DNA of 64,000 nucleotides from NCBI GenBank assembly GCA_963746845.1, contig CAVVCZ010000006.1, positions 1-64,000 on the forward strand. The letters are read 5' to 3'. The DNA is from an uncultured Chloroflexia bacterium. GTDB lineage: Bacteria > Chloroflexota > Limnocylindria > Limnocylindrales > CSP1-4. The notes beneath the pieces were generated by a model, which saw only the letters and a program-made list of their open reading frames with translations, was not told the origin of the DNA and searched no databases. Positions 3,001 through 38,656 of this stretch are shown here, one piece after another; the first letter of the stretch is position 1; every line of letters begins with the position of its first letter. The position numbers were made by a program, and so were the translations under genes.

Positions 3001-3197
3001 TCGATGGTGACCGGGCGGTGCAGTGATTTCGATAGCTCGCTGGCGATCTTACCGCGCAGTAGCGGCGGCGCGGCCAGACCCAAGAGCAGGCCGAAACCGA
3101 CAACGATCGCGGCAAGCCAAATGGCGATCTTGCGGGTCCGCGGATGGCGAACGATGGCGGTGGTTTTTGTCCGCAGATCGGTAAGTTTTGACGCCAT
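1..3197 (-). CDS. DUF748-type (AsmA-like) large membrane-anchored protein, runs off the window's left edge; frameshift near 2310
   Basis: N-terminal TM segment (IAIWLAAIVVGFGLLLGLAAP), repeated beta-rich modules, C-terminal LAVALLKDRDGVIDIDLPISGSLDDPQFSVGGII motif read on the minus strand at ~220-330. Confidence 0.8.
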
Positions 3198-3285
3198 GGC
3201 AAACTTCGTGAGGATGAATTGCCGCGAGCTTATCGCAAGGGGTATGGCATGTCCATCGAACGTGCCGAACTAAATTATGTTGATA

Positions 3286-3725
3286 TTAACCGCCGGTGTC
3301 GATGGTCTCCAACATGGCGATGTAAGTGCTTGGCATGTGCCAATGATGCGCGCCCTCGAGGATCAAGCGTTTGTATTCGGGATTGGGCAGCGGGACATTT
3401 TTCTCGATGGCGGCGACGTAGACCAATACTTGCAGCGGATGACTGCCGTTGTCCGGCGCGTAGACCGATAAAATCTCGCGGTGGTAGCCGTCTTCGAAGC
3501 CGTCCATGACGTCGAGATCGGCGTCGAGACATCGTACACTGCGCCCCAGACTTCCCGGCCGGCGACCGCGCAGACGTTGGCGGTGCCGCACTCGCGCAGG
3601 CGCGAGTGGCGGGTGATGCCAAATTCATAGTCGGGCAGCTTGGCGATGGTGACGAACTTCGTCGAAGGGCAGCGCCGCTGCATTTGCGGCCAATGCAAAT
3701 TCGATCCGTAAGCGAAATAGTACAC
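3286..3725 (-). CDS. gamma-glutamylcyclotransferase family protein (frameshift ~3530)
   Basis: MYYFAYGSNL motif; downstream frame gives LDVMDGFEDGY...PNPEYKRLILEGA. Confidence 0.85.
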
Positions 3726-3970
3726 GACAGCCTCACCTCCCGGTTAAGCGGCGATATTAAGGAAAGATTTTATTGCGCACAAGCTGTCGGAAATGCTCGC
3801 GGGTTACCAACTTCAATCGGCCTAAGCATCAGTGATGCGCTTAGGCCGATTTTTTTTCGCCGGCATAGGTATCGTTGCAAGCTGTCATTTCGCGCGCAGC
3901 GAGATATCTTTCCTGAGCCAAGCCAACCAAGCGTTGACGAACTCGGTGCGGTTCGATACTTGATCGTCCC

Positions 3971-4923
3971 ATGACCAAACTCAAAATCACTTTGGCCCTG
4001 GGCTCCTATGACCGGCACGCGCCTTTGCTCGAAGGCTGCATCCAACACCCGGATATCGACATCGAATATATCGAGTGCGACCCGCAGCAGGGGCGCCATG
4101 AGCGGTTCCTGCAACATTTCGAATTCGACGCGGCGGAACTGTCCTTTTCTTCGTACTGCATCGCCGTCGATCAAGGCATGCCGGTGCATGCGGTGCCGAT
4201 CTTTCCGCGCCGGCTGTTCAGCCAGTCGCAAATGTATAAGAACGTTAACTGTGGCATCGCGACGCCGAAGGATTTGCTTGGTAAGCGTATCGGCTTGAGC
4301 GGCTATCAGAATACTCTAGGCGTGCGCGCCAAGGGCGACCTGACGCATTTTTACGGCGTCGATCGAAAGTCGGTGACTTGGATCACGCCAGGTAAAGAAG
4401 TGGTCGATGTCGAGTTGCCCGCCGATTTGAAAATTGAAAGTCGCGGCAGCATGGCCGAGATCGAGCAGGAATTTGTCGACGGCAAAATTCAAGCGATGTT
4501 CGTGTCGCGCCTGCCCAAGCCCTTCCGCGACGGCAACAAGAACTTGGCCCGGCTGTTCGCCGATCCGCAAGCCGAAGAAGAACGCTACCTGCGCGAAGAA
4601 GGCTACTTCCCGATCATGCATGTGCTTGGCGTACAAAAAAGAGTTGGCCGAGAAACATCCCGAGCTGCCGCGCGCGCTTTTCGATGTCTTTGAACAAGCC
4701 CGCGCCCGCGCCACGCAGCGCTGGGTCGATCCCAACTGGTCCATGGTGATGTGGGGCAGGAAAGAGCTGGAGCGGCAGAATAGCGTTGTGCAGCTTCGAT
4801 CCGTGGAGGAACGGTCTAGAAGCCAACCGCAAAAACATCGAACGCTTCGCGCTCTACAGCCACGAGCAGGGCTTGACCAAGCGGCGGCTGACGCCGGAAG
4901 AGTTGTTTGTGGGGATCGAATAA
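3971..4923 (+). CDS. 4,5-dihydroxyphthalate decarboxylase-like / PBP2-fold protein (frameshifts ~4630, ~4790)
   Basis: LALGSYDRHAPL, FDAAELSFSSY, PIFPRRLF, FPIMH motifs; C-terminal EQGLTKRRLTPEELF in another frame. Confidence 0.75.
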
Positions 4924-4925
4924 GA

Positions 4926-4997
4926 ACGTTTCGAGTTTGATGTTTCGGGTTTAGTGTTCACGTCCTTCGGACAACTGAATACTGATAACTGCCGACT
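4926..4997. repeat. degenerate 7-mer microsatellite patches between convergent genes
   Basis: gtttcga/gtttgat/gtttcgg/gtttagt and actgaat/actgata/actgccg. Confidence 0.55.
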
Positions 4998-6295
4998 CCC
5001 GCCGCGGTGGCTTTGCCAACAGCACCAAGAACGCTGAAGTAAACAGCGCACAAGAAAAAATCGTGAACGATAGATCGTAGCTGCCGGTGCGGTCGTGCAG
5101 GAAACCGAAGAACGGCGCGCCGCTGGCGGCGAATAGATGCGAGAACAGCATCGATAGGCCGCGCACGGTGCCGAGGGAATTCCGGCCGAAGAAATTGGCC
5201 CAGATCACTTCGCGCAAGACGAAGCTTCCCGCCAAGCCGGTGCCATAGAGAAAAAAGCCGATATAGGTGACATGAATTTGCCGACTGGTGATGGCGGTGA
5301 TCAGGCCGATGCCTTGAATCAGGAACTGGATACAAGAAACTTTTCGGATATCGAATTTGTCGGCGAGCATGCCCCAGACCAGTGTCGAGCCCAGTTGCGT
5401 GATCGCGATGGTGCTCATGAACGAGGCGGCGACGAGCGGTGAGTGGCCGATGTCGGTGACGTAAGAGAAAATGTGGAGATTCAAACCGGCGATGCCGACG
5501 CTGGCGATGCCGAAGGTGATGACGAGCACCCAAAATGTCGGTAACCGAATAGCCTGGGCACGAGTCCACACCGTTTCGTCAGAACTTTGTGCCGGTTGTT
5601 TTCGGCGGTCGTCGGTTCTGGATTCTCGCGGCTCTGCAATGGCGGCCAGGCGGCGGATCGCCATCTGGGCGGAGTCCTAAGTCTTCGGGTTGGCGGCGCA
5701 CGAAGATCAGCGCTGGGGCGACAACTAACAGCGGCGCGATGATGCCGAAGATCGCCCAGGTGTAGCGCCAACCGACGAGCACGAACAGCGACGCGGCGGC
5801 GATCGGGATGCTCAGCTTGGCGACACCGGTGCCGAGGTTGGCGATGCCCATGGCGCGGCCGCGCTTGCGCACGAACCATTGGGCGATGGTGACGTTGATC
5901 ACCAGCGAGCCGAGCAGTGCTTCGCCGGCGATGACCAACGAGCAGCGCACGACGACGAACTGCCAGAAACTCTGCACCAAGCTCGAAAGCAACAGCCCCG
6001 CGCCTTCCATGAGCACGCCCAAGACGAGCACGCCACGCCCACCATGACGGTCGATCCACGAACCGAGCATGGGCACGATCAACGCGGCGACGCCGATCTC
6101 GAAAGTACGAATCAGCGAAAATGCGCCGCGAGTTACGCCAAGCTCTTCGGTGATCGGTTTGAGAAAAATGCTCAACGTGCTGGAAAAGGCGAAAGTGCCG
6201 GCGATGTTGACGAGAATGCCGACGGCAACGATGTACCAGCCGTAGAAGAAACGGGGCTGAATGGCGGAGCCATCCGTCTTGTGACGTGCGGTCAT
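4951..6295 (-). CDS. MFS transporter (frameshift ~5650)
   Basis: FFYGWYIV start, GSWIDRHGGR motif A, two 6-TM halves in adjacent ORFs 5579-6295 and 4951-5664. Confidence 0.85.
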
Positions 6296-6405
6296 ATTTG
6301 CAGCTGACGCCCGTGGTGTCTATTGACTGGCTATAGCGTTTGGGGGAAGTTCTCCGAACCCTGTAGGATGCGGTGAAGTTCAGGACAGTGAAATAGGCGG
6401 CAAAT

Positions 6406-7476
6406 TTACTTTGCCGCTTGTGGAACCTGTCGCAGTAACTCCGCTAAATGATGCTTCCACCACTTCGCTCTGCCGACTGTGCCGTGGCCGGCGGTTTCGT
6501 CGCTTGCCGGGATCAGCATATATTGGCCTTGCTTCACGCGCTTGATCTCGCGTTCCATGATTCCTAGCTCGGGCGGATTTCGTTCGTCGTCAGCAGAATT
6601 GATGGCGAGCAGGCGAGCTTTGATGCTCTCCAGTTTGGGCGACGGATTATAGTCGCGGGCCGACTCGTACTGATAAATCACATCGTTGGCGTCGGCCCTC
6701 GACGTTTGCGCTAGGCGCTGGTTCACCTGCTGATCGGCTTTTTCCCACGTCGGCGCCGCCTTTTGAAGTGCCTGGCTGCCGCCGTTGGTGGCGATGCTAA
6801 AATAGGTTTGCGCCAACTGTAAGCTGCGCGGTTGTTTGGTGTAGTTGCCGCCGTTCCACTCCGGGTCGCTGCGGATTAATTCGATCATCATGCGGCGGGT
6901 CATCCAGTTGCGGCCAGCCACCTCGACCGGCATGCACGACATGGGTACGAGCGCGTCCATGAAATCGGGAAACATCGTGCCCCAGACCCACGTGAGCATC
7001 CCACCGCCAGATGTCCCCATCACCAATCGCAGCCGCCGCATACCGAGATGCTCCGTGACCAAGCGGTGCTGTGCCCGGACTAGGTCGTCGGAGTTGTAGC
7101 GGGGAAAGTTCGTCCGCAACCCATTGGATGGCTTGGATGATTTTCCGGCGCCGATAGCGTCTGGAATAATAATGAAATAACGCTTTGCGTCGAGAGGCTG
7201 TCCAGGACCGAACAGTTCGCCGGCGAAGTTGTTGTTAAGAAAATTTTCTCCGGTTGCGCCCGTGCCGTGCAGGATCAACACCGGCTCGCCCGATGGATCG
7301 CCGACGGTTAAGTAACTTAACTTCAGCTCTGGCAACACCTCGCCGGTGTGAAAGCGAAAATCGCGCACTGTCCAGCTTGCTTCTTTTGGCGCAGGATAGT
7401 CGGCGGCTGGAAGAGAATTAGTGATGAAAAAACCAAGCAGGCTGAAAATAACGATCGAGAGTCTACTGGATATCAT
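6406..7476 (-). CDS. secreted alpha/beta hydrolase, homoserine acetyltransferase-like family
   Basis: Signal peptide, DFRFHTGEVLPEL, GTSGGG nucleophile elbow, SADDERNPP, TAGHGT; GGAGG RBS. Confidence 0.85.
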   Translation of the reverse strand: MISSRLSIVIFSLLGFFITNSLPAADYPAPKEASWTVRDFRFHTGEVLPELKLSYLTVGDPSGEPVLILHGTGATGENFLNNNFAGELFGPGQPLDAKRYFIIIPDAIGAGKSSKPSNGLRTNFPRYNSDDLVRAQHRLVTEHLGMRRLRLVMGTSGGGMLTWVWGTMFPDFMDALVPMSCMPVEVAGRNWMTRRMMIELIRSDPEWNGGNYTKQPRSLQLAQTYFSIATNGGSQALQKAAPTWEKADQQVNQRLAQTSRADANDVIYQYESARDYNPSPKLESIKARLLAINSADDERNPPELGIMEREIKRVKQGQYMLIPASDETAGHGTVGRAKWWKHHLAELLRQVPQAAK

Positions 7477-7826
7477 ACGGCCTCCTTGTTTTAAAACTGA
7501 ATGCTTTTGATCTCCCACCAGTTACCATTCAAATCCGCAAACAGAAATGACGCTTAATCATTGGATTCACTCACTGCTTCAAGCTCGCGCAGCCTTGGTG
7601 AGGTAAGGATTGGGTTGCGCGCACGTCAGCGCCGGCGCGGTGAGCAGGGCGAGAGACCCGGCGAAACACAAACTTTGCGTCCGTGCAGCGAATGGTTTCA
7701 TGGTTTAACCTTGACTCGATAAGACAATAGTCGGCCATGCGCTGTCAACCGGTTCGCCGTGCGGCTTGAAATACTTTCCAGACCGCATTAACAATGGCGC
7801 GACTCATAGACTCTGGGAGACGATTC

Positions 7827-8903
7827 ATGCTGATTCTATCCAATGACGACATCGAAAAAATTCTTCCGGTGGGCGCTTGCCTCGATGTGCTGGAAGAAGC
7901 CTATCGTGATCTTGGCAACGGCATGGCCGCAACGGTGCCGCGCTACGATGTTTTCAGTCCGACGAAACCCGGCGAGTTCTATGAGTACAAAACCATGAGC
8001 GGCGTGCTGCCCAATCGCGGCATCGCCGCGCTGCGGCTCAACTCCAGCGTGGTCAAGTGGTACGAGAAGGCGGGCGGCGTGCGCAAGGACAAACTGCCGG
8101 TCGCAGGGGGCGACCGCTACGTCGGGCTGGTGATGCTGTTCAGCACCGAAACCGGCGAACCGTTGGCGATTTTCCCCGATGGCTATGTGCAGAAATTGCG
8201 CGTTGCCGGCGCCAGCGCAATCGCCGCGCGCTACCTGGCGCGCAAGGATTCAACCACGATGGCGTTGCTCGGCTCGGGCTGGCAGGCGAGCGCGCATCTC
8301 GTCACGATGGCGATGATCCGTGATTTGCAACAGGTCCGAGTCTTTAGCCCGACGCCTGAGTCGCGTCGTAAGTTCGTCGAAGAATGGCGTGGCAAGGTGA
8401 AAGCGGAATTGATCGAGTCCATCAGCGCCGCCGAAGCGATCAAAGACGCCGACATGGTGATCTGCACGACCAACTCGATCTCGGCATTGTTTCCTGGCGA
8501 TATCTTGGAGCCGGGCATGCATGTGTCGTGCGTCAAACCCTGCGAGCTCGATGCATTGACTTACCAGCGCTCCGACCCGCTGATCATCCACTGGCGCGAG
8601 GCGAAACCGTTTCAGATCACCATCGGTGTCGATCCGCACTCGATCCCCGATATTGCCGAGGGCTGGCCCCACCCGATCACCCGCGAAGACACGGCGATCT
8701 GGGATCTACCGACGATCTCGCAGCTGGTCAATGGCCAACATGGCGGCCGCAGCAGCGACGAAGCGATCAGCTGTTTTTGTAACAACGTCGGCCTAGGTTT
8801 GCAGTTCGCCGCCGTCGGCAGCGAAGTATTGGCGCGGGCGCGGGAGGCGCGAGTCGGTCGGGAGATTCCGACGGATTGGTTTTTAGAAGATGTGCATCCT
8901 TAA
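7827..8903 (+). CDS. ornithine cyclodeaminase / mu-crystallin family protein
   Basis: LFSTETGEPLA, RVAGASAIAARYLA, GSGWQA Rossmann motif, GLGLQFAA. Confidence 0.88.
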   Translation: MLILSNDDIEKILPVGACLDVLEEAYRDLGNGMAATVPRYDVFSPTKPGEFYEYKTMSGVLPNRGIAALRLNSSVVKWYEKAGGVRKDKLPVAGGDRYVGLVMLFSTETGEPLAIFPDGYVQKLRVAGASAIAARYLARKDSTTMALLGSGWQASAHLVTMAMIRDLQQVRVFSPTPESRRKFVEEWRGKVKAELIESISAAEAIKDADMVICTTNSISALFPGDILEPGMHVSCVKPCELDALTYQRSDPLIIHWREAKPFQITIGVDPHSIPDIAEGWPHPITREDTAIWDLPTISQLVNGQHGGRSSDEAISCFCNNVGLGLQFAAVGSEVLARAREARVGREIPTDWFLEDVHP

Positions 8904-8904
8904 T

Positions 8905-8939
8905 TTTCGTTCAAGGTTCAAAGGTTCAATGTTCAAGGT
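8905..8939. repeat. gttcaag-type 7-8-mer tandem repeat
   Basis: gttcaag gttcaaag gttcaat gttcaag; a related patch at ~23926-23943. Confidence 0.6.
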
Positions 8940-8946
8940 CAGAACA

Positions 8947-9933
8947 ATGCCAATGATCCATTTAGCCTTTGTCATTTGGCTCGCCGTATTCAACGGGGTT
9001 ATTACCGCGCAGACGATCAAGCTTAAAGTCGCTTATCCGACGACGGTCGGTTCGATGGCTGTGGTTTGGGTCGCCAAAGAGGCCAAGCTGTTTGACAAGC
9101 ATGGACTCGATGTCGAGCTCATTTATGTCGCGGGCAGCTCACGTGTTGTCCAAGCAATGCTCGCCAAGGATATCCCGATCTCGGAGATCGCCATCCCCGC
9201 GGTGATCCAGGCCAATCTCGCCGGCGCCGATCTGGTGATGCTCGCCGGGCCCAATCACAAACCGGGGCAGAAGATCATGGTCAAGCCCGAGATCAAACGG
9301 CGGGAGGATCTCAAGGGCAAAAAAATCGCTATCAGCCGCTTCGGCACATCGGACGATTTTCTTCTGCGCTATGTGCTCGGTCAATGGAATCTTCAGCCCG
9401 ACCGTGACGTAGCGCTGATCCAAATGGGCGGCTCGCCGGAAACGCTCGCGGGCTTGGCGGCGGGCGCTGTCGATGGCGGCTTGCTCGCTTCGCCGCTCCA
9501 TCTCCAGGCTGCCAAGTTCGGTTTCAGTTTGCTCGCCGACCTGAGCACCCTCGGCGTCGACTACCAGGGCGCCGGTGTCGTGACGACCCGTTCGTACATG
9601 CGCGAGGCGCCGGACACGGTCCGCCGTTATCTGCGCGCTTACGTCGAAGGGCTGCACCGATTCAAAACCGACAAAGCCTTCGCGGCGAAAGTTATCGGCA
9701 AGTATTCGCGCATGACCGATGCCGACGCTTTGGAGGAAACCTATCAGCACTATGCCGTCAAAGTGATGCCGCGCGTGCCGTACCCGACAATCAAAGGCAT
9801 TCAAATGGTTCTTGACGAGATCGGCACACGCACGCCCAAGGCCAAGAACCTCGCGCCGGAGAGTTTCATCGATGTGAGTTATTTGAAGGAACTGGAGCAG
9901 GGTGGGTTTATCAAAAAGCTTTATGGGGATTAG
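8947..9933 (+). CDS. ABC substrate-binding protein, NMT1/SsuA-like
   Basis: Signal peptide, KHGLDVELI, DLKGKKIAISRFG, FIDVSYLKELEQGG. Confidence 0.88.
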   Translation: MPMIHLAFVIWLAVFNGVITAQTIKLKVAYPTTVGSMAVVWVAKEAKLFDKHGLDVELIYVAGSSRVVQAMLAKDIPISEIAIPAVIQANLAGADLVMLAGPNHKPGQKIMVKPEIKRREDLKGKKIAISRFGTSDDFLLRYVLGQWNLQPDRDVALIQMGGSPETLAGLAAGAVDGGLLASPLHLQAAKFGFSLLADLSTLGVDYQGAGVVTTRSYMREAPDTVRRYLRAYVEGLHRFKTDKAFAAKVIGKYSRMTDADALEETYQHYAVKVMPRVPYPTIKGIQMVLDEIGTRTPKAKNLAPESFIDVSYLKELEQGGFIKKLYGD

Positions 9934-10162
9934 AATCGTTAAGAACGAACGAGAAGAATTCAATCATAGGTTTCAACGCGGCGATTGAATTTCTGCTGAT
10001 TTCAGGAGCGGTTCACGCCCAGCCGGCGCCCACGGCCGCCAAAAAACTTGACGGTCTGCCGTCATGCTTGGAGATTTTGCCGAGCAAGGCCGTTAGATTT
10101 GTCGATCGCTGTGAGTGTAACTTTGAATCAATTTATTTTTTTTACGTCGCTCAATTATCTTA

Positions 10163-10191
10163 TTGACAGAGAAAAGCCACTTTCGTAAACT
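10163..10191 (+). promoter_or_regulatory. strong sigma70-type promoter with AT-rich upstream element
   Basis: TTGACA (10163-68), 17 nt spacer, TAAACT (10186-91); A/T tract at ~10125-10145. Confidence 0.8.
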
Positions 10192-10223
10192 AACGATCAG
10201 CAGGGAAAGGAGGTGGTCCAGAC

Positions 10224-10265
10224 ATGATTGATTTAAGTACTGGCTGTGAGGTGGCTGAGACTTAG
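10224..10265 (+). CDS. 13-aa small ORF MIDLSTGCEVAET
   Basis: ATG at 10224 and TAG at 10263-65, preceded by AAAGGAGGTG Shine-Dalgarno. Confidence 0.6.
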   Translation: MIDLSTGCEVAET

Positions 10266-10333
10266 GCTCTAGGCGGCGACTCTGAATGGAGATTCGGGCC
10301 TAGAGCCTGAGAATCTCCCTCAGCCACCGCAGT

Positions 10334-10385
10334 GGCCCGCTGCACCGGTCGCGCAAGCTGCCGAGTGTAGCGGGCCTTTTATTTT
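10334..10385 (+). terminator. intrinsic terminator
   Basis: ggcccgctgcac/gtgtagcgggcc stem followed by ttttattttt. Confidence 0.8.
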
Positions 10386-11083
10386 TGCAGCATTTTAAGT
10401 GCCGCATCGGCGCTCTTTTTGATCTGCCCATTGCCGTTCCGGCTCGCTTCGTTCAACGCCCGCATAAATTCTTCATCCGGCGACCCTAGACTAGCCAGGG
10501 TTACGGCGACTACGTTCTTCACGCGGTCATCTGCATCATGCAAATAAGTAGCTAGAAGCTTTTGCCGGACGGCGGCATCGACATCGGTTCTCACTTTCAG
10601 ACTGGTAGCGGCGGCAACGCGCACTGTCGGTTCTTCGTCGTCCAACGCCTTCAACATTGCTCGCCGGCTCTCAGCGTCGTGCAAAGCTAAGTCGCGCAGG
10701 CAGTAGAGCGCCATGCGTTTCTGATTGGCGCTGCCAGTCACGCACAGTTCTACCAGCAGCGGGACCACGGCGCCTTCCTGCTGGGCGATGCGCACGAGCA
10801 GCAGGCCGTTGGCCCAGCGAATATCCGGTTCGCGGTGATCGAGGGCGTCGAGCAGCGTGCGAATCACAACTCCCGAAGGCTGGGCTTGATGGCCGAGAAT
10901 GTAAGCGACCGGCCAATAGTTTCTGTGATCCGCTTCGCTGAGGCGATTATGGAGGGCTTGTCTTAGAGTTTCGGAAGTCTCGGCCAATGCGATGAGCTTG
11001 TCGACGGCGGCGCGGATCGTTGGCTTGTCGGGATGATCGAGGGCGGCGATGAGATCGGTAATCTCGCGTGGCTCGGTTGCCAT
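10379..11083 (-). CDS. HEAT-repeat protein
   Basis: Repeated helical motifs LIAALDHPDKPTIRAA, LLDALDHREPDIRWA, LKALDDEEPTVRVAAA. Confidence 0.8.
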   Translation of the reverse strand: MATEPREITDLIAALDHPDKPTIRAAVDKLIALAETSETLRQALHNRLSEADHRNYWPVAYILGHQAQPSGVVIRTLLDALDHREPDIRWANGLLLVRIAQQEGAVVPLLVELCVTGSANQKRMALYCLRDLALHDAESRRAMLKALDDEEPTVRVAAATSLKVRTDVDAAVRQKLLATYLHDADDRVKNVVAVTLASLGSPDEEFMRALNEASRNGNGQIKKSADAALKMLQK

Positions 11084-11114
11084 GGGCGAACTCCAACGCG
11101 AAAGGTTAGCCGAT

Positions 11115-12309
11115 TTAGATTTCTAAAAACTGCGGGCAGTCGGTCAAGTTGCGGTTGCCTTTGGGCTTGACCACGACGACATCTTCCAATCTGACGCCGC
11201 CGACGCCGATGTAATAGAGTCCCGGTTCCACGGTGACCACATGGCCGGTGCGCAAGATCGCGTCGACGGGTGCGATGCGCGGCGGCTCGTGAATGTCCAA
11301 ACCCAAGCCATGGCCGGTGCCGTGGAAGAAGCCCTGCATGCGGCCGTTGATTTTCCCGGTCGGGAAGCCGCGGGCGGCGAACATGTTCAAAATATTCTGG
11401 TGTACTTCTTTGCCGTTGACGCCGTCGCGGATCTGCTCGTAGCCGATCTGCTGGCCGGCTTGCACCGTGGCGTAGATCTCTTTTAATTTGTCCGACGCTC
11501 GGCCGCGCACCACGGTGCGGCTCAAATCGCCGAAATAACCATTGTGCTGCGAGCGCGGAAAGATATCGAAGATGATCGAGGTGTTCGCTTTGACCGGCCC
11601 GGTGCCTTCATGGTGCGGATCGACGCATTGGTTGCCGGATGAAATGATCGTGTGGCTCGGCAGCCAGCCTTGCGCCATGATCGTCGTGTTGACCGCGGTC
11701 TTGAGCATTTCCGAAGTCAGCCTGGTGCCGTTGAGATAGAGATAGCCGTCGCGCTTGGTCGTGGTCCGTTTGAGCATGCGGATGCCGGCTTCGAGGCCGA
11801 GGCGGGCGATGCGCAGGGATTCGGTGATCTGTTTCACTTCGAGATTATTCTTGGTCTCGCGCTGGGGCCAGAAGGGGTCGCGCTTGATTTGCACGCTGTA
11901 GCCCTTGGCGCGCAGCTGGTCCAACAGGAGCGCGGAGAAATTCGCCGGCACGATCAGCGAGCGAATGGCGCGCTCGCGAAATATCAAGTCGACGATGTCG
12001 ATGACCGCCGCCGGCGATTTGCCGAGCTTGCGCAGCTTCTTCTGATACAGGGACAAAGACAGAGTCCGGTCGGCATGGGCTTGCTTCTTGGCGCGGTCGA
12101 TCTCCAGATCGCTCATGACGATGTGGCTGATGGTTTTTGTGCTGAAAAAAAATAAACGGATCGGGCACGAAGAAGCCGGTGGCGTAAAGCATGTTGGCGT
12201 CGCCTTCGCTGGCGGCGTAAAGCAGGATCGCCTGATTCGGTTTGAGTTGGATCGATTGCGGCGCCGAGCCGCTCGATAGGTTTTTTGCTTTTGTCTTGGC
12301 TTCGAACAT
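11115..12309 (-). CDS. Xaa-Pro aminopeptidase (M24) family; frameshift at poly-A ~12145
   Basis: DIFPRS, GYFGDLSRT, HGTGHGLGLDIHE, TVEPGLY, GVRLED. Confidence 0.9.
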
Positions 12310-12420
12310 GATTACTTGATCGCCTCGATTCGCGTTGGTTATGGTTTTCTAGCAGCTCGATCAAGTTAACAAGTTGGCTCTGGAACTGCAAGATTTTCCT
12401 CGTGATTTCGCGCGATTCAG

Positions 12421-12448
12421 TTGACAGTCGAGAGGCTTTTGTTATGAT
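12421..12448 (+). promoter_or_regulatory. sigma70 promoter of carboxylase operon
   Basis: TTGACA-16 nt-TATGAT with extended -10 TG. Confidence 0.65.
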
Positions 12449-12502
12449 GCCGCCACTCGCTGGCGAAACTATTTTGCTTTCGCGTCTAAGGAATTTCTCT
12501 CG

Positions 12503-14053
12503 ATGACGATCGCTAACAATCTCGACAAACTTCGTGAACTCAACGACAACGCCGAAGCTGGCGGTGGCGCCGACCGCGCGCGCCGGCAGCATGAACAGGG
12601 TAAACTTCTGGCGCGTGAGCGTCTCGACATTCTGCTCGACAGCGGCAGTTTCGTCGAGATCGACCGCCTGCGCACGCACCACAGCACCGACTTCGGCCTC
12701 GATAAGCAGAAATTTTTAGGCGACGCGGTGGTCACCGGCTACGGCGCTATCGATGGCCGGCTCGTCTATGTCTACTCCCAGGACTTCACGGTTTTTGGCG
12801 GCAGCCTGAGCCGTGTGGTCGCCGACAAGATCTGCAAAGTCATGGACATGGCGATCAAGAACGGCGCGCCGCTGATCGGCATCAACGACTCCGGCGGCGC
12901 GCGCATTCAAGAAGGCGTCGACAGCCTCGCCGGCTACGGCGATATCTTTCAACGCAACGTGATGGCGTCCGGTGTGGTGCCGCAGATTACCGCGATCATG
13001 GGTCCGTGCGCCGGCGGCGCGGTCTATTCGCCGGCGATCACCGACTTCATCTTCATGGTCAAAACCAACAGCTACATGTTCATCACCGGTCCGGACGTGA
13101 TCAAGACGGTGACCCATGAAGAGGTGACTAAAGAAGACTTGGGCGGCGCGGAGACGCATACGGGCAAGAGCGGCGTGGCGCATTTTACCGCCAATACCGA
13201 AAAAGACTGCTTGCTGATGATTCGCGAGCTGGTCAGTTTTCTACCCAGCAACAATCAGGAAGATCCGCCGTTTCGGCCGACCCATGACGATCCGCTGCGG
13301 CGCGACAAGCGGCTCAAAGATATCATCCCTGATAATCCAAACCGCCCCTACGACATGAAAGAGTTGATCGGCGCGGTGGTGGATGAAGGTTACTTCTACG
13401 AAGTCCAACCGGAGTTCGCGCGCAATATTCTTATCGGCTTCGCTCATATCGGCGGCCGCTCGATCGGCATCGTCGCCAACCAGCCGAATCACTTGGCCGG
13501 CTGTCTCGACATCAATGCCTCGGTGAAGGCGGCGCGCTTTATCCGTTTCTGCGACTGTTTCAATATTCCCATCGTGACGTTTGTCGATGTGCCGGGTTTC
13601 TTGCCCGGCACCGAGCAGGAATATCATGGCATCATTCGCCATGGCGCGAAGTTGCTTTACGCTTATGCCGAAGCGACGGTGCCGAAAGTCACCATCGTCA
13701 CGCGCAAGGCTTACGGCGGCGGCTACATCGTCATGGCGAGCAAGCATCTGCGCGGCGATGTTAACTTGGTCTATCCCACCGGCGAGATCGCCGTCATGGG
13801 GCCGGAAGGGGCGATCAACATCGTCTTCCGCGGTGAATTGGAGAAGTCGGCCGACCCGGCCAAGGCCCGCGACGAGCTGGTCAACCATTATCGCGAGACC
13901 TTCGCCAATCCATTCAAAGCCGCCGAGTCAGGCTATGTCGACGGCATCGTCTATCCCGAGGACACCCGGCCGACCTTGATCCGCGCCTTGGAAATGCTCA
14001 AGAACAAGCAAGATCACAATCCCCCCAAGAAGCATGGGAATATTCCACTCTAA
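12503..14053 (+). CDS. pccB: acyl-CoA (propionyl-CoA-type) carboxylase carboxyltransferase subunit
   Basis: [49 protein letters not shown]. Confidence 0.93.
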
Positions 14054-14058
14054 GATGA

Positions 14059-14168
14059 GACGGGAGACAGAGATTAGAGACAGAGACCGGACTGTAGCGG
14101 TCCATGATCTCGATTCTCTGGCTTTATTCCTGATCTCGACTCTCTGTCTCAAATCTCTGTCTGCCGTC
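14059..14168. repeat. 28-bp inverted repeat built from gagacaga-type units
   Basis: gacgggagacagagattagagacagaga (14059-86) vs tctctgtctcaaatctctgtctgccgtc (14141-68), 26/28 complementary. Confidence 0.85.
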
Positions 14169-14169
14169 C

Positions 14170-15702
14170 ATGTTTAAGCGAATCCTCATCGCCAATCGCG
14201 GCGAGATCGCCGTGCGCATTGCGCGCGCTTGCCGCGAGCTCGATATCGAATCGATCGCGGTCTATTCGGAAGCCGACCGCGAGTCGCTGCATGTCAAATA
14301 CGCCGATTACGCTTACGCGATCGGCCCGGCACCGTCTGCGCAGAGTTATCTGGTCATCGACCGTATTATCGACGTCTGCAAGAAAAGCGGCGCCGAGGCG
14401 GTCCATCCGGGTTACGGTTTCTTGGCGGAGAACGCCAAGTTCGCCCAACGCTGCAAGGATGAAGGCATCGTCTTCATCGGCCCGTCGCCGGAAGTCATCG
14501 ATCAGATGGGCGACAAAGTTAAAGCGCGCCAGATCATGAAAAATGCCGGCGTGCCGGTGGTGCCGGGTTCCGACGGCATTCTCACTTCCGAAGAGGAAGT
14601 GCTCCAGACCATGGAAGCGATCGGCTATCCGTGCATGTTGAAGGCGGTGGCCGGCGGCGGCGGCAAAGGGCTACGGCTCGTGCGCTCACGGCGCGAAGTG
14701 TCGTCGGCCTATCGCGCCGTCGGTTCGGAAGCCAAGTCGTCCTTCGGCGATCCGCGGCTGTACGTCGAAAAGTTCATCGTCAAACCGCGTCATGTGGAGA
14801 TTCAGATCCTCGCCGATAGTTACGGCCGGGTCATTCATCTCTACGACCGCGAGTGTTCGATCCAGCGGCGCCATCAGAAAGTTATCGAAGAGTCGCCGGC
14901 TCCAGGACTGGAAGACCGCACGCGCCGGCGCATCGGCCGGATCGCCATTCAAGGCGCCCGTGCCGTCGGCTACGTCGGCGCCGGGACGTTGGAGTTTTTG
15001 CTCGACAGCGAGCAGAATTTTTATTTCTTGGAAATGAACACCCGCCTGCAAGTCGAGCATGCGGTGACCGAGCGGGTGGTCGGCATCGATCTGGTCAAGG
15101 CGCAGATCGAAATCGCCGCGGGCGGTTATCTGCCATGGCGCCAACGCCATATTACCCAGACCGGCCACGCCATCGAATGCCGGATTTACGCCGAAGATCC
15201 CGAGCATGACTTCATGCCTTGCCCCGGCCGGATCGAAGGCTTGCGTCTGCCCGAAGGGCTGGGCTTGAGAAACGATAACGGCGTCTACGAAGGCGCCGAA
15301 GTGCCGATCTATTACGATCCGATGATCGCCAAGTTGATCACCTGGGGTGAGAATCGCATCGAGGCGATCCTGCGCATGCGCCGGGCGCTGCGCGAGTACC
15401 AGGTGCGCGGCATCAAGACCAATATTTCGTTTCACCAATGGATCTTGCGCCATCCCCGGTTCATGTCCGGCGACGTCAATACCGGGTTTATCGACGAAGA
15501 ATATAGTCCCAAGGCCAACGAAGAAGTCTATCCGCACAAGGAGATCGCGCTCGCCTCGGCGGCCATCGCGGCGCTGCACGGCGAACATGAACGGACCATC
15601 GGCTTGCTTGCCAAGGGCGCGGCCGAGCCGTCCAAGTGGCGCCAGCAGCGCGCGTCATTGCGCCGGTCGGCGGCGCCCGGCAACCGCGGTTGGCGCCGTT
15701 AG
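14170..15702 (+). CDS. accC: biotin carboxylase subunit
   Basis: ILIANRGEIA, HPGYGFLAEN, GGGGKG, RECSIQRRHQK, EMNTRLQVEH. Confidence 0.93.
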   Translation: MFKRILIANRGEIAVRIARACRELDIESIAVYSEADRESLHVKYADYAYAIGPAPSAQSYLVIDRIIDVCKKSGAEAVHPGYGFLAENAKFAQRCKDEGIVFIGPSPEVIDQMGDKVKARQIMKNAGVPVVPGSDGILTSEEEVLQTMEAIGYPCMLKAVAGGGGKGLRLVRSRREVSSAYRAVGSEAKSSFGDPRLYVEKFIVKPRHVEIQILADSYGRVIHLYDRECSIQRRHQKVIEESPAPGLEDRTRRRIGRIAIQGARAVGYVGAGTLEFLLDSEQNFYFLEMNTRLQVEHAVTERVVGIDLVKAQIEIAAGGYLPWRQRHITQTGHAIECRIYAEDPEHDFMPCPGRIEGLRLPEGLGLRNDNGVYEGAEVPIYYDPMIAKLITWGENRIEAILRMRRALREYQVRGIKTNISFHQWILRHPRFMSGDVNTGFIDEEYSPKANEEVYPHKEIALASAAIAALHGEHERTIGLLAKGAAEPSKWRQQRASLRRSAAPGNRGWRR

Positions 15703-15713
15703 AGGATATCCCC

Positions 15714-16217
15714 ATGGCGTTTATCGGTAAGCTTGGCGATCAAACCTTCACCGTGGACATCGAGGAAACTGGTAAATCGGTTTACCGGGTCTCGGTGGAC
15801 GGCAATGAATTTATCGTCGACGGCAAGAAGACCGGCCGGACCAACTATTCGCTGATCGTCGACAATCGTTCCTTCGAGATCGAAGTCGACAACACCGACG
15901 ATGACTACCGGGTGCTGGTCGATGGGCGCAATTACCACATCAATCTGGTCGATGAGCGGCGTGTGCGCGTCGGCGGCGCCCAGGCCGGCCTCGAACTCCA
16001 GGGACGCCAGAAGGTCACTGTACCGATGCCGGGGAAAATCATCGCTGTCCTGGTTTCCGAGGGCGACCAGGTCGAAAAGGGCCAGGGACTGGTGATCGTC
16101 GAAGCGATGAAGATGGAAAACGAAGTGCATAGCCCCATCGCCGGCGAAGTCAAAGAGATCAAAGTGAAGCCGGGCGATACCGTCGAGGGCGGCGCCCTGC
16201 TGTTGATCGTCGAGTAA
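15714..16217 (+). CDS. biotin carboxyl carrier protein
   Basis: PMPGKI and EAMKMENE biotinylation motif. Confidence 0.92.
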   Translation: MAFIGKLGDQTFTVDIEETGKSVYRVSVDGNEFIVDGKKTGRTNYSLIVDNRSFEIEVDNTDDDYRVLVDGRNYHINLVDERRVRVGGAQAGLELQGRQKVTVPMPGKIIAVLVSEGDQVEKGQGLVIVEAMKMENEVHSPIAGEVKEIKVKPGDTVEGGALLLIVE

Positions 16218-16250
16218 GCAGGATTTAACCAAGATTTTTTCACATGATTA

Positions 16251-16279
16251 TTGTCAGCTTATTTCTTTCATGTTATAGC
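16251..16279 (+). promoter_or_regulatory. sigma70 promoter immediately upstream of pdaD
   Basis: TTGTCA-17 nt-TATAGC with TG extension; ATG only 8 nt downstream. Confidence 0.55.
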
Positions 16280-16287
16280 AGCGCTCC

Positions 16288-16839
16288 ATGATCCCGAAGA
16301 AATGTTTTTTTACCAAAGGTGTCGGCGTCCACAAGGAAAAGTTGGCGTCCTTCGAGCTCGCCTTGCGGCAAGCGGGTCTGGCCTACTGTAATCTGGTGTT
16401 GGTGTCGAGCATCTTCCCGCCTTATTGCAAGCGACTTTCCAAGGAAGAGGGCGCCAAACTACTGCGTCCCGGGGAGGTCGTGTTCAGCGTCTACGACCGT
16501 GAGAGCACCAACGAGCCCAACCGGTTGGTGGCGGCCTCCGTGGGTGTGGCGATTCCATCGGATGAGAGCCAATACGGCTATCTGTCGGAGCATCACTCCT
16601 TCGGCGAGACCGACGAAAAGGCCGGCGACTACGCCGAGGATCTCGCCGCCAGCATGTTGGCTACCACTCTAGGCATCGAGTTCAATCCCGACACCGCCTG
16701 GGACGAGCGCGAGCAGCTATTCAAAATGTCCGAGAAAATTGTCCGTACTTCCAACATCACCCAGTCCGCCATCGGCAACAAAGACGGCCTGTGGACCACG
16801 GTGTTTGCCGCTTGCGCGTTCATCAACGACGATAACTAA
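16288..16839 (+). CDS. pdaD: pyruvoyl-dependent arginine decarboxylase
   Basis: [18 protein letters not shown] self-cleavage Ser-Ser, YGYLSEHH. Confidence 0.9.
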
Positions 16840-16856
16840 GGGTTCACTCGAATTCT

Positions 16857-16894
16857 AAAAAAGGGGCGTTGGCTTTGGCTGACGCCCCTTTTTT
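16857..16894. terminator. bidirectional intrinsic terminator
   Basis: aaaaaaggggcgtt...gacgcccctttttt between convergent pdaD and tatC. Confidence 0.88.
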
Positions 16895-17666
16895 ATTCGG
16901 CGGCCCGGTCTAACCGGTTCATCCGGAAGCGCGCCAGGTAGGCGACGGCGATGCTGAGGCCATAGAGCAATAGCAGCGGCACCATCAGCAAGATTTGCGA
17001 GATCAAATCGGGCGGCGTCAGGATCGCCGCCAAAAGCGCGATGGCGATCAGAGCGTAGCGGCTGTGGCGGATCAAAAAGCGATGGTCGATCAGGCCCACC
17101 CGGGCGGTGAAAAACGCGATCACCGGCAGCTCGAACATGGCGCCGGAAGCTAAAACCATGCGTGAGATTGTCGACAGGTAGTCGCCGACTTGGAGCATCG
17201 GTGTAACGCCGATGACCTCGTAGCGATGCAGCAAAAAACTCAGTCCATGTTGCACCACGATGGCATAACTGAAAGCCGCTCCGAGGCAAAAGCACAGCGA
17301 ACCGGCGAAGACGAAGCTGCGCGTATAGCGCTTCTCATGTTCGTAGAGTCCGGGCGCGACGAATTGCCAGCCCTGCCACAAGAGCACCGGCAGAGCGACA
17401 ACCACCGCGGCGGCGAAGCCGAGTTTCATCTTGGTAAAGAACGCTTCGGTAACGCCGGTGCCGATGAGTATCAGCCCCGGGATATTGAGACGGCGCACTG
17501 GCGCGGCGAGAATCGCGAATATCGTGTCGACGTAATAGAAGCAGGCGAAGAACGCGACGGCGACGGCGAGCACTGATTTGACCAGCCGCGAGCGCAACTC
17601 CCCCAGGTGGGAGGTAAAGGGCATTTGGACATCGGCATGCTGCCCGTTGCCGTCTGGCGTGGTCAC
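16893..17666 (-). CDS. tatC: twin-arginine translocase TatC
   Basis: [38 protein letters not shown]. Confidence 0.95.
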
Positions 17667-17941
17667 TTTTTTTCTGCGGCGTTGGGAAGGGGATCGGCTA
17701 CCGGAGGTTCGGCGGCTTGCGCGGGTTGGGGATCGACTGTTAGCGGTTCGGCCGGCGGTGGCGGCTCGTCAAGATCGGCCTCCACTTTGCGAAACTCATC
17801 TTTGAGCTCATCGGTGGCGCGGCGAAACTCGGCCAGTCCTTTGCCTAGGGTTTTGGCCAGTTCGGGTAGTTTCTTGGGTCCAAGGACAATCAAGGCCAAT
17901 CCCAAGATCATCAGTAATTCCGGCATGCCGATACCAAACAT
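17663..17941 (-). CDS. tatA: twin-arginine translocase TatA/TatB
   Basis: [27 protein letters not shown]. Confidence 0.9.
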
Positions 17942-18290
17942 ACAGTTAAACTAAGCGATTTCACTTGGCTCCGCAAGATTGCGCGATGGATAACGTTTGC
18001 TTGGCCCTGGTTGCGCGGAGCGAGACGAGATTTCTCGCTGCGCTCGAAATCACAGCTGAATAGCGCCGCAGCCAAGCAATCTAAGAAGATTCGGAATCGG
18101 AAGATTAGCGGAAACAACGCAAATCAAAATCGCCAAAGGAGGGCAGGATTGGAAACCCGCCCGCTTGGATCATCACCGTAAGTAAAATACTAAGAACGTT
18201 GTCATCCCGAGTGCAGCGAGGGAGCTCGACCGAATCGAATCGCGGCGAAATCGCTTTGCAGCGCCTGGGCGTCGGTGTTAGGTTCTTTCT

Positions 18291-19320: not shown

Positions 19321-19333
19321 CTTGAATTTCCTA

Positions 19334-19362
19334 TTGATTCACCGGCGAGTCTCCATTATCTT
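19334..19362 (+). promoter_or_regulatory. putative sigma70 promoter for fabF-fabH
   Basis: TTGATT-17 nt-TATCTT. Confidence 0.5.
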
Positions 19363-19397
19363 AAAGTTCCAAATTCATTAAAGATTGGTTAAGTATT

Positions 19398-21639: not shown

Positions 21640-21857
21640 ACTGGCGGGCTTTGCCGGTTTCGTCGGTTCGTTGGCTGATATTCGGCCTCTTGAATCGAGT
21701 GCCGGACTGAAGCGTCGAGTTTCCCTATGAGGCAGTGAAGGTGGAGTTTCTTTTGCAAGCCGCATAGTACGCGCGACAATGTCGCCGCACATATCGCTAC
21801 AGCTGACGCCGCTACGCGACGGATGATCACTTTCTTCGGAAGAATTGTTTCACGTCG

Positions 21858-22680: not shown

Positions 22681-22775
22681 TGAGTGCTCCTGTGGTTTTG
22701 AGATTGCCAGGTTAGCGTCAAAGCTCGGACAATTTCAAAGCCTCACGGCGATTAACTTGGAAATAAGGACTTGCC

Positions 22776-23906: not shown

Positions 23907-24018
23907 GGGCATGAGCTGTGGCGAAGTTCGTTCAACGTTCAAGGGCCAACGTCGGGAAACCGGACTTGCGCTTCAATAGCGACGCCCCGGAAACGGCTTC
24001 TTGCCAACATTGTCGATC

Positions 24019-25087: not shown

Positions 25088-25092
25088 CCGGC

Positions 25093-32191: not shown

Positions 32192-32215
32192 CGCCGCCCT
32201 TGTCCTCCCCCATCG

Positions 32216-32350: not shown

Positions 32351-32422
32351 GACGGGGAAAGGACGAATTCGGGCCGGTGTCGAATTGCATATCCAAATTC
32401 CGATTTGCCATTGTTGCGAGTC

Positions 32423-36648: not shown

Positions 36649-36692
36649 TTTTCGGTTGTCAGCGGCGCACCGGCTGTTCTATAAACCGTCAT

Positions 36693-38650: not shown

Positions 38651-38656
38651 CGAGCG

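What the first reader, a model, noticed from the sequence alone, without database searches (positions are those of the whole stretch)
10163..10385. Stand-alone small transcription unit: consensus promoter, 13-aa ORF, long hairpin, terminator
Between two convergent genes lies a complete unit with no downstream gene to regulate: TTGACA-N17-TAAACT, a strong SD, MIDLSTGCEVAET*, an ~90-nt rod-like hairpin and a U-tailed terminator. It is therefore not an attenuator. I do not recognise it as SRP, 6S, tmRNA, RNase P or a riboswitch. It is a candidate undescribed dual-function sRNA or micro-peptide gene, probably highly expressed (inference from promoter quality).
Basis: partly seen in the sequence, partly recalled or inferred. 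Interest (0 to 1): 0.85.

Follow-up and report, generated by a model that had tools for sequence, protein, structure and literature searches.

The report
Ribosome-loading small RNA, Ms_IGR-5 relative
This is a real, self-contained small RNA gene carrying a tiny open reading frame; it is a distant relative of a catalogued but functionally unstudied actinobacterial small RNA (Ms_IGR-5), and it sits in a stretch of foreign DNA at the end of the contig.

Summary
Window 10163-10386 (+) carries a TTGACA-17-TAAACT promoter, a very strong Shine-Dalgarno (SD) site, a 13-codon ORF (10224-10265), a 91-nt rod hairpin and a U-tailed terminator, between convergent genes. It is not undescribed. It matches Rfam RF02471 (Ms_IGR-5, "Actinobacteria sRNA") over the full model at 42 bits (cut-off 45; E 3e-8). 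I read it as a divergent family member.

Family-wide features, which four text searches did not find in print:
- The 5' end can pair with 15-22 contiguous nt of the 16S rRNA 3' end.
- A 12-14-codon ORF keeps its start, frame and stop position. The stop is TAG, TGA or TAA, always 5 codons after GAG-GTG. The residues vary freely.

This points to ribosome loading and transit as the selected feature, not the peptide.

The gene lies in a 50-kb block of 57% GC in a 71% GC genome. Congeners lack it. Three 56% GC soil metagenome contigs share the RNA, and two share neighbouring genes. A DUF748/AsmA-type gene in the block argues against an actinobacterial donor. The block is either an island or a chimeric join. 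Function is unknown, and transcription of this copy is not shown.

The parts
10163..10191 (+). Sigma-70-type promoter: TTGACA (10163-10168), 17-nt spacer, TAAACT (10186-10191). The start of the RNA is inferred at about 10198-10200.
   Evidence: scores it 10 of 12. Both hexamers are conserved at the same spacing in L159, L160 and L161 while the spacer differs. The Rfam match begins at 10199.
10199..10383 (+). Full-length match to Rfam RF02471 (Ms_IGR-5). The RNA body is about 187 nt, from about 10198 to 10386.
   Evidence: 42.0 bits, gathering cut-off 45, E 3.3e-8 over 551 nt and 5.1e-8 over the whole genome, model positions 1-184 of 184.
10204..10221 (+). 'Super-SD': 18 contiguous nt able to pair with the 3' end of 16S rRNA, two of the pairs being G.U.
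   Evidence: The 16S 3' end was read from G000 contig C4. Run lengths come; the 18-nt figure for the window is my hand count (the close relative L160 also has 18). The duplex with the last 15 nt of 16S is -25.7 kcal/mol, against -0.3 to -10.3 for 21 gene starts of the same block. In the 3.56-Mb genome the 14-mer occurs only here and antisense to a 16S gene.
10224..10265 (+). 13-codon ORF, ATG to TAG, reading MIDLSTGCEVAET*. The start lies 10 nt after the GGAGG core. The stop lies 5 codons after GAG-GTG and is base-paired inside the rod.
   Evidence: A soil relative differs by net +3 nt and stays in frame. L160 and L161 have 14 codons in the same frame.
10219..10242 (+). Weak hairpin P1, joining the 3' part of the SD block to the middle of the ORF. 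It encloses the start codon.
   Evidence: The fold. The family-wide P1 base (GGUC with GGAC) is paired in 92.1% of cells.
10243..10333 (+). Rod hairpin P2. Its base helix pairs GGTGGCTGAG (10250-10259, inside the ORF) with CTCAGCCACC (10319-10328). A conserved unpaired 3' segment, GAGAATCTCCC, lies at 10309-10319.
   Evidence: The base helix is paired in 91.7% of cells across 38 sequences, against 24-46% when the partner is slid by 1-3 columns. Pair 63-147 has 9 double changes. Among the three close relatives, 6 of 63 pairs have compensatory changes.
10334..10386 (+). Intrinsic terminator: a 43-nt GC-rich hairpin followed by TTTTATTTTT.
   Evidence: L160 and L161 have terminators with different stem sequences at the same place.
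1..51000 (.). Foreign low-GC block (52-63% GC in a 71.2% GC genome) at the start of contig C6. It contains the RNA gene.

Best explanation
The element is a divergent member of the Ms_IGR-5 small-RNA family (Rfam RF02471). It is an independently transcribed RNA of about 187 nt that ends at its own terminator.

The conserved design, shown here:
1. A 5' end that is antisense to the whole single-stranded 3' tail of 16S rRNA (15-22 nt).
2. A start codon 8-13 nt further on (one locus has 4).
3. An ORF of fixed length (12-14 codons). Its last six codons are the 5' strand of the base of a long hairpin, and its stop codon sits inside that stem.
4. A conserved unpaired segment (GAAUYCC) and an anti-SD-like CAGYCACC on the 3' strand of the hairpin.

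Inferred mechanism: a 30S subunit is captured very tightly at the 5' end. The ribosome then translates the mini-ORF and melts the base of the rod each time it reaches the stop. This transiently frees the conserved 3' strand, which could pair with other RNAs or with the RNA's own SD. The selected feature is ribosome binding and transit, not the peptide. The likely uses are protecting the RNA's 5' end and gating or reporting on the RNA's structure.

This copy lies in a 50-kb foreign block. The block's native lineage is a soil bacterium of about 56% GC, probably with an outer membrane, and not the MAG's own lineage.
For: Identity:
- RF02471 matches full-length at 42 bits, E 3.3e-8 and 5.1e-8 genome-wide.
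- In a sample of 41 Actinomycetota genomes, 13 have a match and only 8 of those pass the cut-off. The other 5 genomes score 26.7-43.9 bits, so sub-threshold members are normal.
- The relative L161 scores 30.3 bits full-length.

Design:
- All 133 rows examined have 15-22 contiguous pairs with the 16S end.
- The duplex is -25.7 kcal/mol, against -0.3 to -10.3 for 21 gene starts in the block.
- An ORF in the GAG-GTG frame is present in 115 of 115 pattern-found loci, against 0 of 115 in each other frame, and in 9 of 11 loci found with the Rfam model alone.
- The stop is exactly 5 codons after GAG in 131 of the 132 ORFs that reach past it (133 rows) and uses TAG, TGA or TAA. Starts are ATG, TTG, GTG or CTG.
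- There are 69 distinct peptides among the 115 loci. Variation does not fall on third codon positions except in one codon.
- A relative in a soil RNA library differs by a net +3 nt and stays in frame.
- The helices are supported.

Expression of the family (passages read): RNA-seq validation in S. lividans (PMC8079986), an sRNA transcription unit in S. avermitilis (PMC8780764), and ribosome footprints in M. abscessus and M. smegmatis (PMC4974804).

Foreign block.
Against: - The match is 3 bits under Rfam's curated cut-off.
- The pattern-found loci had GTGAGGTGGC and CAGNCACC fixed by my own search pattern, so conservation of E-V-A and of the base helix in that set is by construction. Only start, frame, length and stop are free there.
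- Two of the 11 model-found loci lack the ORF. In L152 the frame runs on. L153 has no ATG, GTG, TTG or CTG start.
- The conserved codons coincide with conserved RNA blocks, so coding and structural constraint cannot be fully separated.
- No transcript ends, strand or translation were shown for this copy. The one RNA-library contig also covers the -35 region and could be DNA or read-through.
- The melting-and-gating step and any target are inference only.
- The function of Ms_IGR-5 is not described in any text I could read.
Confidence: 0.75

Rival explanations
1. It is a true micro-peptide gene. The 12-14-residue peptide (the C-terminal ..T-x-E-V-A-x-x; Cys-x-x-Cys in the closest relatives) is the effector, and the RNA structure only tunes its synthesis.
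For: Start, frame, length and stop are conserved. The stop uses three different stop codons. One codon (ACN, Thr) varies only at its third position. The closest relatives read MIDDKCIVCEVAET, MIDDTCSDCEVAET and MNDDNCTVCEVAET, which share a C-x-x-C.
Against: Positions 2-5 and 7 change radically (W/R/G; R/C/S), and there are 69 distinct peptides in 115 loci. Every conserved residue coincides with a conserved RNA block (GGAC, GAGGUGRCUG). This window's copy has lost the first Cys of the C-x-x-C. Text searches for four peptide strings returned no paper, and the fifth only an unrelated one.
Confidence: 0.15
2. It is a purely non-coding, base-pairing small RNA. The SD-like 5' end and the ORF are incidental, or serve only as a 5' stabiliser that binds 30S without productive translation.
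For: A strong SD near the 5' end is known to stabilise RNAs in Gram-positive bacteria (the STAB-SD of cryIIIA; recalled, not looked up). The conserved unpaired GAAUYCC segment looks like a seed. The peptide is weakly constrained.
Against: A stabiliser alone does not explain a start codon at fixed spacing together with a stop codon at a fixed position in 115 of 115 and 9 of 11 loci, with none in the other two frames. It also does not explain in-frame indels.
Confidence: 0.1
3. It is a cis-antisense partner of the convergent HEAT-repeat gene. That gene's transcript would read through the RNA gene to a terminator-like site on the minus strand at 10064-10049.
For: The HEAT stop codon overlaps the T-run. 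A minus-strand terminator-like site lies upstream of the RNA's promoter. A HEAT homologue is also convergent in L160.
Against: In the 115 actinobacterial loci no flanking-gene cluster covers more than 39 loci, yet the RNA is conserved. Terminator-like sites in this region are no more frequent than in shuffles: 3 found, 3.5 expected.
Confidence: 0.04
4. It is a leader-peptide transcription attenuator or riboswitch for a downstream gene.
For: A short ORF followed by hairpins and a terminator resembles trp-type leaders.
Against: There is no same-strand gene downstream: two minus-strand genes follow, up to 12116. In the actinobacterial loci, three of the four flanking-gene clusters that lie mainly downstream are on the opposite strand. 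Rfam gives no riboswitch match.
Confidence: 0.02

Closest known systems
Rfam RF02471, Ms_IGR-5 ('Actinobacteria sRNA'), first reported in Mycobacterium smegmatis
   Same: Full-length model match. The order of blocks is the same: the 5' anti-16S/SD block, the mini-ORF, GAGGUGRCUG, a variable hairpin, GAAUYCC..CAGYCACC, and a terminator. It is a single-copy, stand-alone gene.
   Different: It scores 42 bits, under the 45-bit cut-off. The peptide ends ..CEVAET rather than ..EVA(A/V)(R/S). The rod is longer and almost perfectly paired. The terminator has a true U-tail. The promoter is sigma-70-like with TTGACA. The host DNA is 57% GC and carries a DUF748/AsmA-type gene that was not found in 121 sampled Actinomycetota genomes.
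Dual-function small RNAs (SgrS/SgrT, RNAIII/delta-haemolysin, SR1/SR1P; recalled)
   Same: A small stand-alone RNA that carries a short translated ORF beside structured, conserved non-coding parts.
   Different: In those RNAs the peptide is conserved and has its own activity, and the base-pairing region is separate. Here the ORF overlaps the structural core, the peptide is poorly conserved, and no target is known.
5' stabiliser STAB-SD of Bacillus thuringiensis cryIIIA mRNA (recalled)
   Same: An extended SD-like sequence close to the 5' end that can hold a 30S subunit and could block 5' exonucleolytic decay.
   Different: As I recall it, STAB-SD is not followed by a start codon and protects a long mRNA. 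Here a start codon and a fixed-length ORF follow, and the complementarity covers the whole 16S tail (15-22 nt).
Attenuator-derived rnTrpL / peTrpL of Sinorhizobium (PMC6614838 and PMC7968998; search listing and abstracts only)
   Same: A small RNA with a leader-type mini-ORF that acts in trans.
   Different: That RNA arises from an attenuator upstream of trpE(G). This one has no downstream gene and no codon bias pointing to an amino acid.

Membership tests
Rfam RF02471 Ms_IGR-5 | Covariance-model score at or above the curated gathering cut-off (45 bits) | tested here: not met
   42.0 bits; E 3.3e-8 and 5.1e-8 genome-wide. No match at the gathering threshold. In the Actinomycetota sample, 5 of the 13 genomes with a match also fall under the cut-off, at 26.7-43.9 bits.
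Rfam RF02471 Ms_IGR-5 | Match over the whole model with all conserved blocks in order | tested here: met
   Model positions 1-184 of 184. The blocks are aligned.
Rfam RF02471 Ms_IGR-5 | 5' block complementary to the 16S rRNA 3' end (a hallmark derived here, not taken from Rfam) | tested here: met
   18 contiguous pairs in the window by hand count. All 133 rows have 15-22. Duplex energy -25.7 kcal/mol.
Rfam RF02471 Ms_IGR-5 | 12-14-codon ORF with its stop 5 codons after GAG-GTG (a hallmark derived here) | tested here: met
   The window has 13 codons with TAG at that position. Family: 115 of 115 and 9 of 11 loci.
Rfam RF02471 Ms_IGR-5 | Base helix GGUGRCUG with CAGYCACC, and an unpaired GAAUYCC on the 3' strand | tested here: met
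   91.7% of cells paired, and one pair with 9 double changes.
Rfam RF02471 Ms_IGR-5 | Host belongs to Actinobacteria (the family's stated range) | tested here: not met
   The MAG's phylum: 2 of 151 genomes match RF02471, namely G000 itself and a weak 27-bit hit, against 13 of 41 in Actinomycetota. The block carries DUF748 at 618 bits, which was found in 0 of 121 sampled Actinomycetota genomes. The donor lineage is not named by any tool.
Dual-function sRNA | The ORF is translated, and the RNA also regulates targets by base pairing | not testable with these tools
   For family members there is only a literature statement of ribosome footprints (PMC4974804, passage read). No target search was made.
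Leader-peptide attenuator / riboswitch | A co-oriented downstream gene controlled by the terminator | tested here: not met
   The next two genes are on the minus strand. No cis-regulatory Rfam match.
6S RNA, SRP RNA, tmRNA, RNase P RNA | Match to the Rfam model (ARAGORN for tmRNA) | tested here: not met
   No such match among the 8 hits with E up to 10. No gathering-level hit in the 64-kb window. ARAGORN found 0 genes.

The most novel reading that the evidence does not exclude
Ms_IGR-5-type RNAs form a family that crosses phylum boundaries. Their job would be to engage the ribosome itself. The 5' end is a full antisense of the 16S rRNA 3' tail, reaching into helix 45 in some members (up to 22 nt). 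Together with a fixed-length mini-ORF and an internal SD/anti-SD mimic helix, it would act as an RNA-based sensor, sponge or parking device for free 30S subunits. That would be an RNA counterpart of protein hibernation or anti-SD-blocking factors, rather than a messenger or a classic base-pairing regulator.
Probability: 0.2. Interest if true: 0.85.

Novelty: new member of a known kind. Interest (0 to 1): 0.45.

Why it matters
Ms_IGR-5 is conserved and expressed in mycobacteria and streptomycetes, yet no function for it appears in any text I could read. This work makes three points:
1. The family has a sharply defined, testable design: a whole-tail anti-16S 5' end plus a mini-ORF with a fixed stop inside a stem.
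2. The conservation pattern favours ribosome transit over peptide function.
3. Close relatives of this copy live in 56% GC soil DNA that is probably not actinobacterial. The family would then be wider than its Rfam name and cut-off suggest.

For genome annotation there is a caution. The first 50 kb of this contig do not belong compositionally to the MAG, so features found there should not be credited to the MAG's lineage without checking the join.

Tried and rejected
Rfam at gathering thresholds gave nothing in the whole window. The match appeared only in E-value mode.

Homologues in the MAG's own lineage:
- RF02471 in 41 relatives: only G000 and a 27-bit hit in G025. On reading it, that hit is a strong SD with an unrelated small ORF and hairpins upstream of a gene. 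I do not count it as a homologue.
- BLAST of 246 nt against 43 genomes of the genus: only a 48-nt, 81% match to the terminator part in G044.
- RF02471 in 151 genomes of the phylum: the same two hits.
- A two-block pattern in 401 genomes of the phylum: 13 genomes match. By eye most lie inside GC-rich coding sequence. The reversed control pattern gave a similar number, about 19 by my reading of the table.
- Those searches scored only 16-48 first-look candidates per genome, so weak members could be missed.

Synteny test for an insertion: neither flanking gene has an orthologue in the 42 congeners, so empty-site comparison was not possible.

Gene context in actinobacterial loci: the largest flanking-gene cluster covers 39 loci. 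I did not annotate these clusters with a tool. No context is shared with the window.

It therefore cannot show that the family is absent from other phyla.

RF02471 on L159-L161 searched whole gave no hit at E up to 0.001. A narrow search gave 30.3 bits for L161.

RNAalifold on the MAFFT alignment of 38 sequences recovered only 9 pairs, because the variable hairpins are not structurally aligned. I therefore counted only the two anchored helices. No covariance model of my own was built.

Sequencing runs. The 5-kb stretch is partly held by soil, permafrost and mine-drainage metagenomes (shares 0.26-0.46) and in small shares by RNA libraries. Laid contigs cannot show strand, ends or level. Parts of the stretch without RNA cover mean nothing. 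Reads were laid on the RNA gene, so the 48-52 kb GC switch was not tested with reads.

ESM Atlas for the neighbouring M24 peptidase listed nearest clusters commonest in Planctomycetota, Binatota and Verrucomicrobiota. This is a lead only, not a taxonomic assignment.

Literature. 'Ms_IGR-5' returned 3 papers, none on function. 'RF02471' returned 1. Of the five peptide strings, four returned no paper and 'TCEVAA' returned one unrelated paper. A term search on conserved sRNA, SD and small ORF found nothing on this family. The original description (PMC3527728) is not held, and supplements are closed. Either may say more about the ORF or the 16S complementarity than I could see.

Unpublished genomes G475 and G458. 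They are 2 of the 13 hits. They are in the comparison and in the 121 genomes. My notebook entry quotes a short ORF reading from L148; it should be treated as unpublished data.

Full report
WHAT IS THERE. TTGACA is at 10163-10168. After 17 nt comes TAAACT at 10186-10191, which the scan scores 10 of 12. GGAAAGGAGGTGGTCC is at 10204-10219. The ORF runs from ATG 10224 to TAG 10263-10265 and reads MIDLSTGCEVAET. A 91-nt rod hairpin spans 10243-10333. A 43-nt GC-rich hairpin spans 10334-10376 and is followed by TTTTATTTTT. The fold is -101 kcal/mol, with z = -6.65 against 200 shuffles. The flanking genes converge on the element: an NMT1-family binding protein at 8890-9933 (+) and a HEAT-repeat protein at 10379-11083 (-). 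Nothing co-oriented follows before 12503, so the element is not an attenuator.

WHAT IT IS. At curated thresholds Rfam finds nothing in the window. In E-value mode the region 10199-10383 matches RF02471, Ms_IGR-5 'Actinobacteria sRNA', over all 184 model positions at 42.0 bits. The cut-off is 45. E is 3.3e-8 and 5.1e-8 for the whole 3.56-Mb genome. The next best hit is a microRNA model at 23 bits.

All but one title name Actinomycetota taxa; L114 is titled only 'uncultured bacterium'. Four of those genomes each have a single copy, scoring 68-137 bits. In an even sample of 41 Actinomycetota genomes, 13 have a match and only 8 pass the cut-off. The other 5 genomes score 26.7-43.9 bits (two of the 13 are the unpublished genomes G475 and G458). 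A 42-bit full-length match is therefore what a divergent member looks like. I file the element as a distant member that fails the formal Rfam threshold.

THE FAMILY'S DESIGN. I extracted the RNA from 135 sources and dropped the two unpublished ones, leaving 133 rows. Four of these, L139-L142, are the same genes as L027, L054, L024 and L007. Five of the 120 pattern loci and the truncated L159 were not picked up by my extraction.

First, the 5' end of every row can form 15-22 contiguous pairs (G.U allowed) with the 3' end of 16S rRNA. Most rows have 17. The window has 18 by hand count, and its close relative L160 also has 18. For the window, the duplex with the last 15 nt of 16S is -25.7 kcal/mol with all 15 paired. 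The 21 gene starts of the same block give -0.3 to -10.3, and 400 random 25-mers have a mean of -5.0 and a minimum of -14.6. In the whole genome the 14-mer occurs only here and antisense to a 16S gene.

Second, a mini-ORF is conserved as an ORF.
- In the 115 pattern-found loci, an ORF of 12-14 codons in the GAG-GTG frame is present in 115. The other two frames have 0 each.
- Among the 11 loci found with the Rfam model alone, 9 have it. L152 and L153 do not.
- L160, L161 and the window also have it.
- The stop lies exactly 5 codons after GAG in 131 of the 132 ORFs that reach past it (L152 runs on; L153 has no start). It is TAG in 117, TGA in 8 and TAA in 7.
- Starts are ATG, TTG, GTG or CTG, 8-13 nt after the GGAGG core, with one outlier at 4.
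- My pattern fixed GTGAGGTGGC, so E-V-A in the 115 loci is conserved by construction. Start, frame, length and stop were free.

Third, the peptide is poorly constrained. There are 69 different peptides in the 115 loci. Codons 2-5 and 7 vary at first and second positions (W/R/G; R/C/S). Only one codon (ACN) shows third-position variation, and it abuts the conserved GGAC of hairpin P1.

Fourth, two helices hold across 38 diverse sequences. One is the P1 base, GGUC with GGAC. The other is the P2 base, GGUGRCUGN with NCAGYCACC. Together 91.8% of cells are paired, against 24-46% when the partner is slid. One pair has 9 double changes (C-G, U-G, U-A, A-U). The 5' strand of the P2 base is the last part of the ORF, and the stop codon is paired in the stem. 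The 3' strand carries a conserved unpaired GAAUYCC and an anti-SD-like CACC.

THIS COPY'S OWN KIN. A pattern taken from the window found three metagenome contigs, L159-L161, with 56-57% GC. They share several features with the window:
- The promoter hexamers at the same spacing.
- The same 5' block.
- A 14-codon ORF in the same frame: MIDDKCIVCEVAET and MIDDTCSDCEVAET.
- The rod, with 6 of 63 pairs changed on both sides among three sequences.
- U-tailed terminators with unrelated stems.

L161 scores 30.3 bits on RF02471. L161 keeps the downstream M24 peptidase (86% amino-acid identity) and the carboxyltransferase (78%) in the same order. L160 keeps a convergent HEAT homologue.

In two soil DNA runs the summed contig depth rises 3- to 10-fold over 10212-10312, so many organisms there share the core. 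One metatranscriptome contig from a relative differs by three substitutions and +1 and +2 nt insertions. That is a net +3 nt, and it reads MNDDNCTVCEVAET in frame. That contig also covers the -35 region, so it does not prove a discrete transcript.

WHERE IT SITS. The assembly has 71.2% GC, and every contig is between 69.5 and 72.2%. C6:1-50,000, which is the first 50 kb of the window, has 52-63% GC. It is the only such stretch: 5 of 350 10-kb bins, all here. The switch lies near 51 kb. Further evidence that the block is foreign:
- Neither flanking gene has an orthologue in 42 congeners.
- The block's carboxyltransferase is only 61-62% identical to that of two congeners, and 62.5% identical to the genome's own second copy on C4.
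- A truncated phage-integrase-family ORF lies at 45163-45699.
- The block carries a DUF748/AsmA/YhdP-type gene at 618 bits that occurs nowhere else in the genome. This family was found in 0 of 121 sampled Actinomycetota genomes. In the run at E up to 1e-5 it matched weakly in the E. coli and Bacteroides controls.

The block is therefore foreign to the MAG and probably not actinobacterial. I cannot tell whether it is a real island or a chimeric join at the contig end. I put the odds near even, leaning to a chimeric join, because the block holds ordinary housekeeping-type genes (fatty-acid synthesis, TatC, biotin carboxylase) and runs off the contig end.

HOW IT PROBABLY WORKS. Three things are shown: the design is conserved; the ORF is kept as an ORF while the peptide drifts; and the SD is far stronger than any gene start nearby. 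From papers (passages read), family members are transcribed in S. lividans and S. avermitilis (PMC8079986, PMC8780764). They also carry ribosome footprints in M. abscessus and M. smegmatis (PMC4974804).

The rest is inferred. A 30S subunit is captured at the extreme 5' end, which would also shield the RNA from 5' decay. The ribosome then runs 12-14 codons and stops inside the P2 stem. Each passage opens the SD-like/anti-SD-like base helix and frees the conserved 3' strand. What that strand then does is unknown. It could pair with targets, or fold back on the RNA's own SD to limit loading. The peptide as effector is a weaker rival (0.15).

NOVELTY. Three features did not turn up in print in four text searches:
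- The whole-tail 16S complementarity.
- The fixed mini-ORF.
- Members outside Actinomycetota.

Noticed in passing
window 1-51000 (G000:C6:1-51000): A block of 52-63% GC at the contig end in a 71% GC genome, and the only such stretch in the 3.56-Mb assembly. It is either a genomic island or a chimeric join. Features in it should not be credited to the MAG's lineage unchecked.
   Followed up: partly
window 45163-45699 (+): A short (178 aa) ORF with a partial Phage_integrase domain, about 5 kb inside the GC switch. The stretch 42243-45162 has no ORF of 150 aa or more, and there is no tRNA in the window.
   Followed up: partly
window 2-3197 (-): A DUF748/AsmA/YhdP-type gene read in two overlapping frames (2-2272 and 2043-3197). 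The Pfam match comes in four pieces. It may be frameshifted, or this may be an assembly error. It also runs off the contig end.
   Followed up: no
window 19567-30268 (+): A fatty-acid/polyketide cluster in the foreign block: KS, FabH-like, a hybrid AMP-binding/PP-binding/KS protein (983 aa), and an AT-DH protein whose frame overlaps the previous one by about 180 nt.
   Followed up: no
window 10049-10064 (-): A terminator-like hairpin with a T-run on the minus strand, upstream of the RNA's promoter. It could end a read-through transcript of the HEAT gene, which would be antisense to the whole RNA.
   Followed up: no
L003 (G025:C2) 1501-1635: In a 1.2-Mb genome of the same order: a strong SD, a 15-codon ORF and two hairpins just upstream of a gene. 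It hits RF02471 weakly (27 bits) but does not share the blocks. It is probably an unrelated leader.
   Followed up: partly
L150 and L155 (G478): One Actinomycetota genome carries two copies of the Ms_IGR-5-type RNA (43.9 and 41.1 bits) on different contigs. Every other genome examined has one copy.
   Followed up: no
window 8890-9933, 31184-32293, 34324-35313: Three NMT1/THI5-like substrate-binding paralogues in the foreign block. and differ on whether the 34324-35313 copy matches the 8890-9933 copy: only one search lists it, at 39% identity.
   Followed up: no
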